A DNA stretch of 64,000 bases from Escherichia coli (GTDB lineage Bacteria > Pseudomonadota > Gammaproteobacteria > Enterobacterales > Enterobacteriaceae). Made by a program: the position numbers. Each line of letters begins with the position of its first letter. The first letter of the stretch is position 1. Of the stretch, positions 3,001 to 6,000 are shown piece by piece. Location: NCBI RefSeq assembly GCF_001677475.2, contig NZ_CP012498.1. The stretch is one strand, 5' to 3'.

Positions 3001-6000
3001 TGTAAATATTGTGCCCGCGAAAAATGGTCTGGCAGGAGGCTGCGCAGTTACCGGGTATATATAAGATGGGTTCCCGCTTCGCGGGGCTTCGGCCAGTCAG
3101 TATTGTCACTCATATGGTATTTTTGTGTGTGGCCTTCCATGCCTCTTTTGCGGCATAACCGGTATCTGACAATGTCTGTAAGATTAATTGTTCTGCACGC
3201 TGTTAATTTCCGGAAGTGATTTCTTCGTGGCCGGAAGCCGGATACCTTTACTGCTTTTTATCCCGGTATAAATCCGGTAAACATCTGATGCGTAGGCAAG
3301 ACGTCTCTGGTTCTGGCGTTCGGTCTTCCTGAATCCGGCATTGTATGCACCAACGGCCTCCCAGGTGACGCCCCATTTTTTAAAGGCTATTGCCAGATAA
3401 TAAGCACCGGTATAAATGTTCATGCAGGGATCTGTTGTCAGATGTTCCGGCTTAATTCCGTAGCGGGCCAGTTCGTTAAAATGCTGGGAGTCTACCTGCA
3501 TCAGTCCGCTGCCATATCCCGTTACCGGATTAATACCGATGGCATTAACCCGGTAACGGGATTCTTTCCATGATATTGCTCTCAGTAAATCAGGATCTAT
3601 TTTGTAATCCCGGCCTGCAAGATCAAAGCAATCAGTGGCCTGGCAGATCTCATTTATAAACATCAGGCAGATGGCTAACATCCATTTTTTCATTTTTCCA
3701 CCTCTGGTGACTTTATCTGTAAATAATTTAACCCACTCCACAAAAAGGCTCAACAGGTTGGTGGTTCTCACCACCAAAAGCACCACACCCCACGCAAAAA
3801 CAAGTTTTTGCTGATTTGCGTTTAATATCATTGAGTTGTATTTGTGGATTTATATTGTTTAAATCTGATTTATTTAAAGCAGCGTCGTTAACGCAGCTAC
3901 AGCAACGCGCCGACACCGCTTTGTAGGGGTGGTACTAACTATTTTTATAAAAAATATTATTTTATATTAGGGGGGCGGCTAGCGGCGCGGTGTATTTTTT
4001 TATAGGATACCGCCAGGGGCGCTGCTAGCGGTGCGTCCCTGCTTGCATTATGAACTCTAGTGTTTCGAAATTAACTTTATTTTATGTTCAAAAAAGGTAA
4101 TCTCTAATGGCTAAGGTGAACCTGTATATCAGCAATGATGCTTATGAAAAAATAAATGTGATTATTGAGAAGCGTCGACAGGAAGGGGCAAGAGAAAAAG
4201 ATATCAGTTTTTCAGCAACAGCTTCAATGCTTCTTGAACTGGGGCTTCGTGTATATGAAGCTCAGATGGAGCGTAAAGAGTCCGCGTTTAATCAAATTGA
4301 GTTTAATAAATTACTTCTTGAATGCGTTGTAAAAACACAATCATCAGTAGCGAAAATTTTGGGTATTGAGTCTCTCAGTCCTCATGTCTCCGGAAATCCA
4401 AAGTTTGAATATGCCAATATGGTTGAAGATATCCGGGAGAAGGTGTCATCTGAGATGGAACGATTTTTTCCAAAAAATGATGAGAAATAAAAAAGAATTA
4501 AAAGTTGATTTTATTCAAATAACAGAATATTGATCTGGTTCTATTTGATGACAATTAACCACATAACGAGTATATTAATTATGTGGTTAATGCCACGTTA
4601 AAATTTGAACTTGAAAATCGCCGATGCAGGGAGGGACAAGCTCCCTGCATCGGCTGTCCATAGAATCCTTTGAGGAGGTTCCTATGTGTGCGATGGATAC
4701 TAGAGAAAGAGCACTCATACGTCAATCAGGCCTGCCGGAAATTATTTTATCCGCAAAATATCCAGTCTGTGTCCGCACAGAGTCAGGAAAATTCATAGAC
4801 TCAAACTCTGTTTTTTTACACTCAATAAAGTGTCAGAATTGTGATTCTGAAATATGGTTTTCTGGTATTGATATTGATACGCAAATTTTATTTCAGACTG
4901 CTGAAGTTGATGCTTTTTCGTCCTCAAATGGAGTGAGCATTATTAATGGTGTAATATTGAATGATGTATCATGGGATGTGGTGGTTGAAAGAACTGAAGT
5001 GAATAACTTGAATTTGTTTGTCTGGAGATTTTTCGAAAGATACGTAGTTAGTAGCTTTTTTATAAAGGGAAAGGAGTTTTGTTGTGAATCTGATAAATAT
5101 CGCTTTAATAAGATAATACCGTATCTTTTGGGTTATAGTCATGAGTATTCTGCTCAAAGAATGGATGTCTCTATTGACCAATCTAAAAAAATATTTATGA
5201 ATTTTAAAAAACACTATGGTTTCTCAGATAGGGATGAGTGGTTGCGATATGCTATAATTTCTGATGTGTTGTTTTATCTATATCAATACTTCGCGAGTAA
5301 TATTAACAACCTTCACTCTAAAGAAATGTAAGTATTCTCGGCACTAAAAGTGCCGGTTTTTGTCAACGTAATTTACTATTTTGTTGTTTGTTTTGTGTGC
5401 GTCTTATGTAAATATTTTGACTAAATCTCTTTTATTTATGGGAGGGAGGGTGATTAAAGGAGCTTTAAGATCTGCACCAAGTAGAAAGGTTTTACTTACC
5501 CTTGACGAGGAAACGAATAAATTATTACTTGGAGCCAGAGAGCGTAGTGGAAGAACGAAAACAAATGAAGCATTAGTGAGGTTGCAGGATCATTTGCAAC
5601 GTTATCCCGATTTTTATAATGAAGAAATATTCAGGGAGGTGACCGAAGAGAGCGAGTCAACATTTAAAGAGCTTTAGTTTTTATCTATCAATATTAAACA
5701 GAGGAATCATATGGACGCCGTTTTAAGTGTTCAGGGTGCTTCTGCGCCCGTCAAAAAGAAGTCGTTTTTTTCTAAATTCACTCGTCTGAATATGCTTCGC
5801 CTGGTTCGTGCTGTGATCCCGGCTGCTGTGCTGATGATGTTCTTCCCTCAGGCGGCCCTGGCTGCTGGCGGTCAGGACCTCATGCAGTCCGGTAATGACA
5901 CCGTCAAAGCCACCTTTGGTAAGGACTCCAGTATTGTTAAATGGGTCGTTCTGGCTGAAGTGCTGGTCGGGGCGGTCATGTACATGATGACCAAAAACGT

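What the first reader, a model, noticed from the sequence alone, without database searches (positions are those of the whole stretch)
4612..5331. Intact FinOP fertility-inhibition system with a non-F traJ allele
finO (39688-40248) is full length with no IS interruption (as recalled, F itself carries an IS3-disrupted finO and is derepressed), and a FinP-like antisense RNA with two stem-loops lies opposite the traJ leader. TraJ differs from F TraJ while traM, traA and oriT are F-like and traY is the short R100-like form. This predicts repressed transfer and a mosaic regulatory region.
Basis: partly seen in the sequence, partly recalled or inferred. Interest (0 to 1): 0.3.

Follow-up and report, generated by a model that had tools for sequence, protein, structure and literature searches.

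The report
Intact FinOP switch, flipped FinP loop
This is the ordinary, complete FinO/FinP "fertility inhibition" switch of an F-like conjugative plasmid, carrying a known non-F TraJ allele. Its only unusual feature is that the 7-base tip of the second FinP hairpin is the exact reverse complement of the tip in its closest relatives, a flip that turns out to recur across F-like plasmids.

Summary
Window 4612-5331 holds FinP (4690→4614, minus strand; Rfam 94 bits) antisense to the traJ leader. It also holds a 215-aa traJ (4684-5331). finO (39688-40248) is full length and 96% identical to R100 FinO, whereas F's copy is split by IS3. TraJ is about 25% identical to F TraJ and 21% to R100 TraJ, but it is a catalogued allele: it passes its own NCBIfam equivalog model, and about 247 PLSDB plasmids encode a TraJ at least 90% identical. 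An intact FinOP is the norm for such plasmids, so the finding as written is ordinary.

One thing was unexpected. The sense-strand loop of stem-loop II is GGACAAG here, but CTTGTCC, its exact reverse complement, in about 239 sibling plasmids. Only 5 PLSDB plasmids and 12 complete E. coli genomes share the flipped form. In 120 metagenomic loci plus reference plasmids, five loop pairs are exact reverse complements. At least four of these pairs lie within one TraJ protein cluster, some on flanks differing by 2-3 bases in 1200. Parsimony needs at least six flips in one cluster.

The window also has a unique A→G at 4653 that perfects the stem. I found no paper describing this, but I could not read the 1986-1994 allele papers. 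Effects on function are untested.

The parts
3774..3798 (-). oriT nick-site motif of the F type (TTTGCGTGGGGTGT|GGTGCTTTTGG). Given as context for the mosaic.
   Evidence: Motif search. F, pSLT and the window have GGGG; R100 and pMB7670_3 have AGTG.
4107..4490 (+). traM, an F-like allele.
   Evidence: Pfam Tra_M 185 bits and NF010267. 95% aa identity to F and 90% to R100.
4548..4576 (+). Candidate traJ promoter PJ (ATGACA-17-TATATT). A single GATC lies upstream at 4532.
   Evidence: Consensus scan, 10 of 12 matches. The site ends 5 nt before the Rfam traJ_5 start at 4581. GATC position. Function is inferred.
4581..4689 (+). traJ mRNA 5' untranslated leader, which carries SLIIc and SLIc, the targets of FinP.
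   Evidence: Rfam RF00243, 121.3 bits against a gathering score of 50.
4612..4690 (-). FinP antisense RNA: 5' end near 4690, SLI, a 4-nt spacer (4655-4658), SLII, and a 3' GAUUUU tail.
   Evidence: Rfam RF00107, 94.4 bits. Fold -39.5 kcal/mol, z = -7. 100% of cells paired across 22 variants.
4620..4654 (.). SLII/SLIIc hairpin: arms 4620-4633 and 4641-4654, loop 4634-4640. The sense loop GGACAAG is the reverse complement of the sibling loop CTTGTCC. G4653 (A in every other sequence examined) makes the 14-bp stem a perfect palindrome.
   Evidence: Alignments A3 and A4. Censuses. Energies. Pair table.
4659..4686 (.). SLI/SLIc hairpin. It encloses the traJ Shine-Dalgarno GGAGG (4674-4678) and the ATG (4684-4686).
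   Evidence: Sequence, fold, Rfam structure line.
4697..4725 (-). Candidate finP promoter (TTGACG-17-TAGTAT) inside traJ codons 5-14. It has no GATC, unlike the F, R100 and pSLT alleles.
   Evidence: Consensus scan, 9 of 12 matches. Alignment A3. GATC search. Function is inferred.
4684..5331 (+). traJ, 215 aa, the activator of the tra operon promoter PY. It belongs to allele group NF010276.
   Evidence: NF010276, 481.9 bits against a cutoff of 444. The N-terminal domain matches PDB 4KQD (F TraJ), E = 3.5e-8. About 247 PLSDB plasmids encode a TraJ at least 90% identical.
5338..5356 (+). Terminator-like hairpin plus T-run immediately after the traJ stop codon, upstream of traY.
   Evidence: Consensus scan. 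Role not tested.
5450..5677 (+). traY, short 75-aa form, the first gene of the TraJ-dependent operon.
   Evidence: Pfam TraY; NF010300, 145 bits against a cutoff of 114. 62% identical to R100 TraY.
38896..39633 (+). traX. Only 54 nt separate it from finO, so there is no orf286-like gene between them.
   Evidence: ORF list. tblastn found no match to the R100 alpha/beta-hydrolase gene. R100 annotation.
39688..40248 (+). finO, intact 186 codons. It encodes the RNA chaperone that protects FinP and speeds FinP-traJ pairing.
   Evidence: Pfam PF12602 and PF04352; NF010317, 361.6 bits. 96.2% identical to R100 FinO at full length, whereas F's copy is split by IS3.

Best explanation
The region is a complete, canonical FinOP fertility-inhibition circuit of a classical (MOBF12 group A) F-like plasmid.

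**How it works.**
- traJ is transcribed from about 4581, with a leader of roughly 103 nt.
- FinP (about 77-79 nt) is made from the opposite strand, from a promoter inside the first traJ codons.
- The two FinP stem-loops are exactly complementary to SLIc, which holds the ribosome-binding site and the start codon, and to SLIIc.
- Pairing begins by loop-loop 'kissing' and spreads, blocking TraJ translation.
- FinO, made from the intact gene at the far end of the tra operon, binds the base and 3' tail of SLII. It shields FinP from RNase E and catalyses duplex formation.
- With little TraJ, the PY promoter stays off, so the tra operon (traY to traX, all present) is mostly silent. The plasmid should therefore transfer at repressed levels.

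**What is particular here.**
- The traJ-PY-traY module is the NF010276 / pMB7670_3-type allele, set between F-like oriT/traM and F/R100-like structural genes.
- The 7-nt SLII loop has been inverted relative to the common form of this allele, most likely by template switching or recombination within the perfectly palindromic 12-bp stem core.
- A later A→G change at 4653 perfected the stem.

**Consequences of the flip.** Both RNAs are read from the same DNA, so the flip keeps self-repression intact. It removes all SLII loop complementarity to sibling plasmids that carry the unflipped loop.

**Shown:** gene content, RNA family membership, structure, allele relationships, and the flip with its recurrence. 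**Inferred:** expression, the repressed phenotype, the molecular route of the flip, and any change in FinP specificity.
For: **The system is complete.**
- Rfam matches to FinP and traJ_5. Fold z-score -7. Promoter-like sites in the expected places.
- TraJ passes its equivalog model and matches the F TraJ N-terminal domain structure 4KQD.
- FinO is full length with both Pfam domains and is 96% identical to R100 FinO.
- Every tra gene from traM to traX gives a near-full-length single tblastn match.
- The mechanism and the repressed default state are described in PMC7690428, PMC3105414 and PMC5102898.

**The loop is flipped.**
- The window, p2RM9088 and KS-P079 pla2 have GGACAAG where pMB7670_3 and pF16EC0455-2 have CTTGTCC, with identical stems and flanks.
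- A 55-mer across the hairpin hits 244 PLSDB plasmids. Five match at full length. About 239 match only the 33-nt palindromic core, and where orientation could be checked (CP134934.1/pMB7670_3) that match is on the strand opposite to traJ.
- In complete E. coli genomes, 12 carry the flipped form and about 180 the unflipped form.

**Flips recur.**
- Five of 18 distinct loops' pairings are exact reverse complements. None of 20,000 random loop sets gave two or more such pairs.
- Four pairs were confirmed to lie within a single TraJ protein cluster; the fifth could not be assigned.
- GTCTGAA occurs in 949 PLSDB plasmids and its flip TTCAGAC in 290.
- Opposite orientations sit on flanks differing by 2-3 bases in 1200.
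- Parsimony on the tree needs at least 6 flips among 25 loci.

**Predicted pairing.**
- Cognate loops pair 7 of 7.
- The window's FinP loop against the sibling traJ loop gives at most 2 contiguous pairs.
Against: - No expression or mating data exist, so repression is inferred.
- There is no orf286-like gene upstream of finO. From my memory of van Biesen & Frost 1992, that arrangement was linked to lower finO mRNA and weaker repression.
- The unique G4653 stabilises SLIIc from -24.4 to -29.6 kcal/mol. In another IncFII plasmid, mutations that stabilise SLIIc or shrink its loop derepressed traJ (PMC10470590). This copy could therefore be partly derepressed.
- A single unique base could also be a sequencing error.
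- The flip counts rest on distance trees of short flanks, and recombination could inflate them.
- FinO can rescue regulation despite FinP loop point mutations (PMC9977716), and SLI is identical between flipped and unflipped siblings. The flip may therefore not change specificity in vivo.
Confidence: 0.85

Rival explanations
1. The circuit is intact on paper but this copy is partly or fully derepressed. The A→G change at 4653 lengthens SLIIc to 14 perfect pairs, and the hardened hairpin slows FinP-traJ strand invasion. The lack of an orf286-like gene may add to this by lowering finO mRNA.
For: - SLIIc stability rises from -24.4 to -29.6 kcal/mol and FinP SLII from -25.4 to -28.1.
- G4653 is absent from all 72,556 PLSDB plasmids and all 5,426 complete E. 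coli genomes.
- It is the only C-G at that pair among 22 FinP variants.
- SLIIc-stabilising mutations increased traJ expression and conjugation in pHNSHP24 (PMC10470590).
- No orf286 gene is present.
Against: - The pHNSHP24 mutations act at the loop-closing position and shrink the loop. This change is at the base of the stem and leaves the 7-nt loop untouched.
- FinP SLII gains the same pair, so both partners change together.
- FinO recognises the shape of the stem base rather than its sequence.
- F has the same traX-finO spacing (54 nt).
Confidence: 0.15
2. The loop flip is selectively neutral noise from a mutational hotspot, a perfect short palindrome. It has no effect on FinP specificity, because the identical SLI loop plus FinO is enough for cross-repression between flipped and unflipped siblings.
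For: - SLI, its loop and both stems are identical between the window and pMB7670_3.
- FinO often rescues pairing and regulation when FinP loops carry point mutations (PMC9977716).
- The flip leaves cognate complementarity intact by construction.
- Both orientations persist at comparable frequency in one cluster, 949 against 290 plasmids.
Against: - A flip removes all seven loop pairs at once, far more than a point mutation does.
- Among alleles that share an SLI loop, the SLII loop is the main difference. That fits SLII contributing to allele specificity.
- SLIIc loop mutations do affect FinP control in vivo.
Confidence: 0.4
3. The inverted loop is an assembly or sequencing artefact of a palindromic hairpin and not a real allele.
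For: - The 33-nt hairpin core reads identically on the opposite strand of the unflipped allele. Palindromes are a known source of strand-switch artefacts.
- Most of the 120 extra loci are short-read metagenome assemblies.
Against: - The flipped form, with correct non-palindromic flanks, is present in closed plasmids from independent projects: USA crow, Japanese cattle, UK cattle faeces, Tibetan pig and an outbreak isolate.
- Any k-mer of 16 or more that spans flank, arm and first loop base distinguishes the two orientations.
- The flipped clade has its own further variants: GGACTAG in L073 and G4653 here.
Confidence: 0.03

Closest known systems
FinOP system of R100 / R6-5 (IncFII), the classical repressed F-like plasmids
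   Same: - Same architecture: FinP antisense to the traJ leader, with two stem-loops.
- finO is intact at the end of the tra operon. FinO is 96% identical.
- TraY has the short 75-aa form.
- IncFII-type RepA1 is 94% identical.
   Different: - TraJ is only 21% identical and TraY 62%.
- The sense loops differ: SLII is AGCGAC in R100 and GGACAAG here. The SLI loop is 2 nt shorter here.
- R100 has the orf286 (alpha/beta hydrolase) gene between traX and finO; the window does not.
- The oriT nick motif is AGTG in R100 and GGGG here.
F plasmid FinOP (finO::IS3, derepressed)
   Same: - oriT nick motif.
- TraM 95% and TraA 91% identical.
- trbG is present.
- A vapBC-like pair lies between traD and traI.
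- The traX-finO spacing is 54 nt.
   Different: - F's finO is split after codon 132 by IS3; here it is intact.
- TraJ is 25% identical.
- F's TraY is the duplicated long form.
- F's sense SLII loop is ACGTGAA.
- F has a GATC in the finP promoter region.
pMB7670_3-type IncFII plasmids (CP134934.1, NC_013542.1 and about 239 PLSDB records): same TraJ allele with the unflipped FinP loop
   Same: - The traJ-PY-traY module is 96% identical at the nucleotide level, and TraJ is 94% identical.
- SLI, the spacer and both SLII stems are identical.
- The finP promoter also lacks GATC.
   Different: - The sense SLII loop is CTTGTCC, the exact reverse complement of the window's GGACAAG.
- The right arm has A where the window has G4653.
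- pMB7670_3 has the R100-type oriT nick motif.
p2RM9088 (NZ_CP042297.1), KS-P079 pla2 (NZ_AP025756.1), pCFSAN004179G (NZ_CP012501.1) and the OkiPb017xx ~70-kb plasmids: the flipped-loop clade
   Same: - 99.9% identical over 4491-5440, with an identical TraJ protein and the same flipped loop.
   Different: - They keep A at the position of G4653.
- KS-P079 pla2 has an in-frame deletion that removes about 50 N-terminal residues of FinO, whereas the window's finO is complete.
Hairpin-loop inversions and quasipalindrome template-switch mutations (general mutational class; recalled from memory, e.g. chloroplast hairpin loop inversions and E. coli quasipalindrome 'correction')
   Same: - A few-base loop between short inverted repeats is replaced by its reverse complement.
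- The change recurs homoplasiously among near-identical backgrounds.
- A neighbouring mismatch has been 'corrected' to a perfect palindrome (G4653).
   Different: Here the hairpin encodes both partners of a sense/antisense regulatory pair. The flip therefore swaps the loop sequences of regulator and target. The mutational route itself was not tested.

Membership tests
FinP antisense RNA (Rfam RF00107) | Sequence and structure match to the family covariance model above the gathering score | tested here: met
   94.4 bits against 45, model positions 1-76 of 76, at 4690-4614 on the minus strand.
FinP antisense RNA (Rfam RF00107) | Encoded opposite the traJ leader, overlapping the traJ ribosome-binding site and start codon | tested here: met
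   FinP spans 4612-4690. The SD is at 4674-4678 and the ATG at 4684-4686, both inside SLI/SLIc.
FinP antisense RNA (Rfam RF00107) | Two stem-loops separated by a short spacer, with SLII followed by a U-rich 3' tail (terminator and FinO-binding site) | tested here: met
   MFE fold: SLI (7+3 bp), a 4-nt spacer GACA, SLII (14 bp) and a GAUUUU tail; z = -7. 100% of cells paired across 22 variants, with one compensatory pair.
FinP antisense RNA (Rfam RF00107) | Own promoter; the transcript is made and stabilised by FinO | not testable with these tools
   Only a consensus match, TTGACG-17-TAGTAT at 4725-4697. A northern blot or RNA-seq is needed.
FinO (ProQ/FinO-domain RNA chaperone; PF04352 + PF12602; NF010317) | Full-length ORF with the N-terminal FinO_N region and the ProQ/FinO core domain | tested here: met
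   PF12602 covers residues 1-62 (133.7 bits) and PF04352 covers 73-177 (94.3 bits). NF010317 covers 1-186, 361.6 bits against a cutoff of 136.
FinO (ProQ/FinO-domain RNA chaperone; PF04352 + PF12602; NF010317) | Not interrupted by an IS element or a deletion | tested here: met
   A single tblastn alignment covers residues 1-186 against R100 FinO at 96.2% identity. F's copy is split at residue 132 by IS3, and KS-P079 pla2 lacks about residues 5-54.
FinO (ProQ/FinO-domain RNA chaperone; PF04352 + PF12602; NF010317) | Located distal to traX at the end of the tra operon | tested here: met
   traX is at 38896-39633 and finO at 39688-40248.
TraJ of classical F-like plasmids (NCBIfam PRK13719 set; allele NF010276) | Passes the curated equivalog cutoff | tested here: met
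   NF010276 scores 481.9 bits against a cutoff of 444, covering 1-215 of 215. The other four TraJ allele models score far below their cutoffs.
TraJ of classical F-like plasmids (NCBIfam PRK13719 set; allele NF010276) | N-terminal PAS-like dimerisation domain homologous to F TraJ (PDB 4KQD) | tested here: met
   phmmer E = 3.5e-8, residues 17-119 aligned to 9-111 of 4KQD. Sequence homology only; no structure was predicted.
TraJ of classical F-like plasmids (NCBIfam PRK13719 set; allele NF010276) | C-terminal helix-turn-helix DNA-binding domain that activates its cognate PY promoter | not tested
   There is no Pfam hit. The C-terminal half aligns with F and R100 TraJ, with conserved Y147, G150, H153, A157 and S167. 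Binding to PY was not examined.
Classical (MOBF12 group A) F-like transfer region | traM, traJ, traY, a complete tra/trb gene set and finO in the canonical order | tested here: met
   Every F or R100 tra/trb query used matched in the canonical order, nearly all at or near full length. traS matched only the R100 allele (75%). trbI (117 of 128 aa), trbA (93 of 114) and trbD gave shorter alignments.
R100/R6-5-type high-level FinO expression (orf286 upstream of finO) | An alpha/beta-hydrolase gene (orf286) between traX and finO | tested here: not met
   Only 54 nt separate traX from finO, and tblastn with the R100 protein finds nothing. The functional link to finO mRNA level is from memory (van Biesen & Frost 1992).

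The most novel reading that the evidence does not exclude
Inversion of the 6-7-nt SLII loop, mediated by the perfectly palindromic stem, may be a recurrent one-step route by which F-like plasmids generate new finP alleles. As far as I could find, this has not been remarked on.

The hairpin encodes both regulator and target. A flip therefore keeps self-repression but gives FinP the loop that the sibling's traJ mRNA carries. Two things would follow.
- Flipped and unflipped siblings would stop cross-repressing at SLII.
- Their two FinP RNAs would become fully complementary to each other across SLII (-79.7 kcal/mol, against -82.4 for the cognate pair). On meeting in one cell they could titrate each other and transiently derepress both plasmids.

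The window carries the rare flipped form of the NF010276-group allele, plus a unique stem-perfecting change.
Probability: 0.3. Interest if true: 0.55.

Novelty: new member of a known kind. Interest (0 to 1): 0.3.

Why it matters
As submitted, the finding matters little. An intact FinOP circuit with a non-F traJ allele is the default state of natural F-like plasmids, and this allele is already catalogued.

The useful outcome lies elsewhere. FinP allele specificity decides whether co-resident F-like plasmids, which are major carriers of resistance and virulence genes, silence each other's transfer. The origin of those alleles has been treated as loop point variation. The data here show that much of the SLII loop diversity comes in exact reverse-complement pairs on near-identical backgrounds. 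That points to hairpin flipping as a fast, reversible source of new specificities.

This is directly testable with trans-repression assays and with deep sequencing of the hairpin. The same logic could apply to other cis-antisense regulators built on perfect hairpins.

Tried and rejected
**Classical allele papers could not be read.**
- Finlay et al. 1986 (PMC212959), Frost et al. 1994 (PMC372961) and Camacho et al. 2005 (PMC1196074) are not held.
- I therefore cannot say whether the 1986-1994 papers already noted inverted loops.
- Four full-text searches found nothing linking FinP to loop inversion.

**R1 could not be compared.**
- R1 (KY749247) is not in the plasmid collection.
- The 228-aa TraJ cluster 0 may be the R1 type, but that is from memory only.

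**One census query failed to discriminate.**
- The first 55-mer query for the GTCTGAA allele also seeded in the conserved right flank, so coverage could not separate the orientations.
- I used exact-identity counts from paired queries instead.

**Ungapped flank comparisons were unusable.**
- Indels spoiled them.
- I replaced them with a MAFFT alignment.

**The co-residence lead did not hold.**
- I checked whether the large plasmid that co-resides with a flipped-loop plasmid in the OkiPb017xx strains carries the unflipped partner.
- It does not. It has a different TraJ (228 aa) and the loop TTCAGAC. There is thus no natural flipped/unflipped co-residence in that strain.

**A blind spot in the metagenome pattern.**
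- My pattern required CAGGGAG in the left arm.
- Flipped versions of alleles with an imperfect stem, such as R100, would have been missed. Their absence says nothing.

**Housekeeping.**
- Searches were errors or time-outs of my own making.
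Full report
**1. What is at the coordinates**

The window is the transfer region of a classical F-like plasmid.

- Upstream of the finding lie a lytic transglycosylase gene (3184-3831, minus strand), the oriT region and traM (4107-4490).
- Rfam places the traJ 5' UTR element at 4581-4689 (121.3 bits; gathering score 50). It places FinP at 4690-4614 on the minus strand (94.4 bits; gathering score 45).
- The FinP strand folds into two stem-loops: SLI at 4659-4686, a 4-nt spacer, and SLII at 4620-4654, followed by a GAUUUU tail. The energy is -39.5 kcal/mol against -19.9 ± 2.8 for shuffles, z = -7.0.
- SLI/SLIc encloses the traJ Shine-Dalgarno sequence (4674-4678) and the ATG (4684).
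- Consensus promoter matches sit where PJ and PfinP are expected: ATGACA-17-TATATT at 4548-4576 on the plus strand, and TTGACG-17-TAGTAT at 4725-4697 on the minus strand. These are pattern matches only.
- traJ is 4684-5331 (215 aa). The ORF that starts at 4624 simply reads through the leader.

**2. finO and the rest of the operon**

- finO (39688-40248) is an unbroken 186-codon ORF with the FinO_N and ProQ/FinO domains. It matches NF010317 over its whole length and is 96.2% identical to R100 FinO.
In NC_002483, FinO residues 1-132 end at the last base of the record. An IS3 transposase occupies 66-1228, and residues 132-186 resume at 1259.
- Every F or R100 tra/trb protein used as a query, from TraM to TraX, found a match in the canonical order, nearly all at or near full length. 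The structural operon that TraJ would switch on is therefore present.
- Only 54 nt separate traX from finO, as in F. R100 has an 861-bp alpha/beta-hydrolase gene (orf286) there.

**3. Alleles and mosaicism**

TraJ:
- It is 25% identical to F TraJ and 21% to R100 TraJ.
- It is not an orphan. It passes the NCBIfam equivalog NF010276 (481.9 bits; cutoff 444), while the four other TraJ allele models score far below their cutoffs.
- Its N-terminal domain matches the F TraJ crystal structure 4KQD (E = 3.5e-8).
- tblastn finds about 247 PLSDB plasmids encoding a TraJ at least 90% identical.

Identities by segment:

| Segment | Identity |
|---|---|
| oriT region | 89% nt to F, 77% to R100; F-type nick motif |
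| TraM | 95% aa to F, 90% to R100 |
| traM-traJ spacer | 89% nt to R100, 80% to F |
| traJ, the PY region and traY | one module, 96% nt to pMB7670_3 (CP134934.1); essentially unalignable to F or R100 |
| TraY | 75 aa; only 62% identical to R100 TraY; own model NF010300 |
| TraA | 91% aa to F, 87% to R100 |

'Mosaic regulatory region' is therefore correct. 'R100-like traY' is correct for length only.

A published survey of 256 MOBF12 plasmids found all classical group A plasmids to be finO+ except F (PMC5102898). Intact FinOP is the rule, not a curiosity.

**4. The unexpected feature: a flipped SLII loop**

I aligned the leader with plasmids of the same TraJ allele. Stems, spacer and SLI are identical. 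The 7-nt SLII loop on the sense strand is GGACAAG in the window, but CTTGTCC in pMB7670_3 and pF16EC0455-2. These are exact reverse complements.

The nearest plasmids share the flipped loop. p2RM9088 and KS-P079 pla2 are 99.9% identical to the window over 950 nt. They keep an A where the window has G4653.

| Census with a 55-mer across the hairpin | Flipped (full-length match) | Unflipped (33-nt palindromic core only) |
|---|---|---|
| PLSDB, 244 plasmids hit | 5 | about 239 |
| 5,426 complete E. coli genomes | 12 | about 180 |

For CP134934.1, where the orientation of traJ is known, the core match lies on the opposite strand. That is what an inversion predicts. No record in either collection has G4653.

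**5. Flips are recurrent across finP alleles**

I scanned metagenome contigs for the conserved hairpin arms with any 5-8-nt loop. Together with the reference plasmids these give 18 distinct sense-strand loops.

Five pairs are exact reverse complements:
- GTCTGAA / TTCAGAC
- CAGCCA / TGGCTG
- TAGCAG / CTGCTA
- ATTCCAC / GTGGAAT
- CTTGTCC / GGACAAG

Two more loops are one substitution away from such a pair. TTCACGC is close to the reverse complement of F's ACGTGAA. GGACTAG is close to GGACAAG. In 20,000 random loop sets of the same composition, none gave two or more reverse-complement pairs.

Other evidence that flips are recent and repeated:
- For four of the five pairs, both partners fall in the same TraJ protein cluster and share the same SLI loop. 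The GTGGAAT locus did not pass the stricter pattern used for clustering, so the fifth pair could not be assigned.
- In closed plasmids, GTCTGAA occurs in 949 PLSDB records and TTCAGAC in 290.
- In a 1200-nt alignment of flanks with the loop removed, loci of opposite orientation differ by as little as 2-3 bases.
- The two orientations are interspersed on the tree. Fitch parsimony needs at least 6 changes among 25 loci. Recombination could inflate this number.

An assembly artefact is unlikely. The non-palindromic flanks are correct, and the flipped forms occur in closed plasmids from unrelated projects. The flipped clade also has its own derived variants.

**6. Likely origin and consequences**

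The 12-bp stem core (CGATGCAGGGAG / CTCCCTGCATCG) is a perfect palindrome. Strand switching or recombination within it inverts only the loop. This is inference; the route was not tested.

Across 22 FinP variants, every stem change keeps a standard pair on the FinP strand:
- U·G becomes C-G in the window.
- One variant has U-A at that pair.
- One pair shows a compensatory G-C to A-U change.
- The other changes are G·U wobbles.

On the mRNA strand, those G·U wobbles are C·A mismatches.

G4653 turns the usual FinP U·G / mRNA C·A position into C-G on both strands. SLIIc goes from -24.4 to -29.6 kcal/mol, and FinP SLII from -25.4 to -28.1.

FinP and its target are read from the same DNA, so the flip preserves 7 of 7 cognate loop pairing. 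The window's FinP loop (CUUGUCC) can form at most 2 contiguous pairs with the unflipped sibling's traJ loop. It is fully complementary to the sibling's FinP loop, and SLII-SLII duplex energy is -79.7 against -82.4 kcal/mol for the cognate pair.

What the literature says about whether this matters:
- FinO contacts the stem base and 3' tail through shape and charge and leaves the loop exposed (PMC3105414). FinO binding should be unaffected.
- Loop-loop contact is the accepted seeding step.
- SLIIc mutations derepress traJ in vivo (PMC10470590).
- FinO can rescue some loop point mutants (PMC9977716), and SLI is unchanged here.

Whether cross-repression is actually lost is therefore open. I put it at about even odds.

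**7. Verdict**

The system is a member of well-known families (FinP, FinO, TraJ allele NF010276) and most likely works exactly as the textbook FinOP circuit does, giving repressed transfer. That phenotype is inferred, not shown.

The finding as submitted is ordinary. The flipped SLII loop, its recurrence across alleles and the unique stem-perfecting base are a modest addition. I found no description of them in the searchable literature, but I could not read the 1986-1994 allele papers.

Noticed in passing
window 49659-64000: A type VI secretion gene cluster (tssB, C, F, G, VgrG, PAAR, tssA, J, K by comparison) sits on the same molecule as the F-like tra region and the IncFII replicon. It is 99.5% identical to 167-169-kb E. 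coli plasmids (CP057155.1, NZ_CP042296.1) and 95% identical to 215-242-kb plasmids including pCFSAN004179G.
   Followed up: partly
L006 16371-16790 (NZ_AP025756.1, KS-P079 pla2): A sibling plasmid with an identical TraJ and the same flipped FinP loop has an in-frame finO deletion (MTEQ|AAKKAQ...). About 50 N-terminal residues are missing, and this is the region reported as essential for chaperone activity. That plasmid may be derepressed, so intact finO is not universal in this clade.
   Followed up: partly
window 4690-4725 (finP promoter region; traJ codons 3-14): This allele group has GGATAC where F, R100, pSLT and two other alleles have GGATC. The GATC (Dam) site that overlaps the finP -10 hexamer in those plasmids is therefore absent here. 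The only nearby GATC is at 4532, upstream of PJ. From memory, Dam-dependent finP control has been described for pSLT, and it may not apply to this allele.
   Followed up: partly
window 32417-33045 (minus strand): A 132-aa and a 76-aa ORF lie head-to-tail between traD and traI. They occupy the same place and spacing as the vapC/vapB toxin-antitoxin pair annotated in F. R100 has nothing there.
   Followed up: no
window 40431-40613 (-), 35973-36049 (-), 25148-25233 (-): Rfam matches above gathering score to three antisense RNA families first defined on plasmid pHK01: AS-pc02 (183.8 bits, just downstream of finO), AS-traI and AS-traG.
   Followed up: no
window 42597-42757 (+), 43178-44591: A sok antitoxin RNA and an IncFII replicon. 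CopA RNA is at 43564-43652 (-). RepA1 is 94% identical to R100, but the CopB/RepA2 regulator is only 64% identical.
   Followed up: no
L138 (NZ_AP042599.1, pOkiPb01701_1) 7960-8175: The bovine E. coli OkiPb017xx strains carry two F-like plasmids with different TraJ/FinP alleles in one cell. The 225-kb plasmid has a 228-aa TraJ and SLII loop TTCAGAC. The ~70-kb plasmid has the flipped GGACAAG allele. The window's traI-finO-repA stretch is 97.8% identical to the large plasmid, while its traJ region matches the small one.
   Followed up: partly
L031, L066, L081 (metagenome loci): SLII loops are occasionally uncoupled from the TraJ protein cluster. The F-type loop ACGTGAA occurs with the 228-aa TraJ, and CTTGTCC occurs with F-type TraJ. 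This indicates recombination between the leader and the coding region.
   Followed up: no
window 5338-5356: A G+C-rich hairpin followed by a T-run lies 7 nt after the traJ stop codon and upstream of traY. It could terminate traJ read-through or be part of the PY control region.
   Followed up: no
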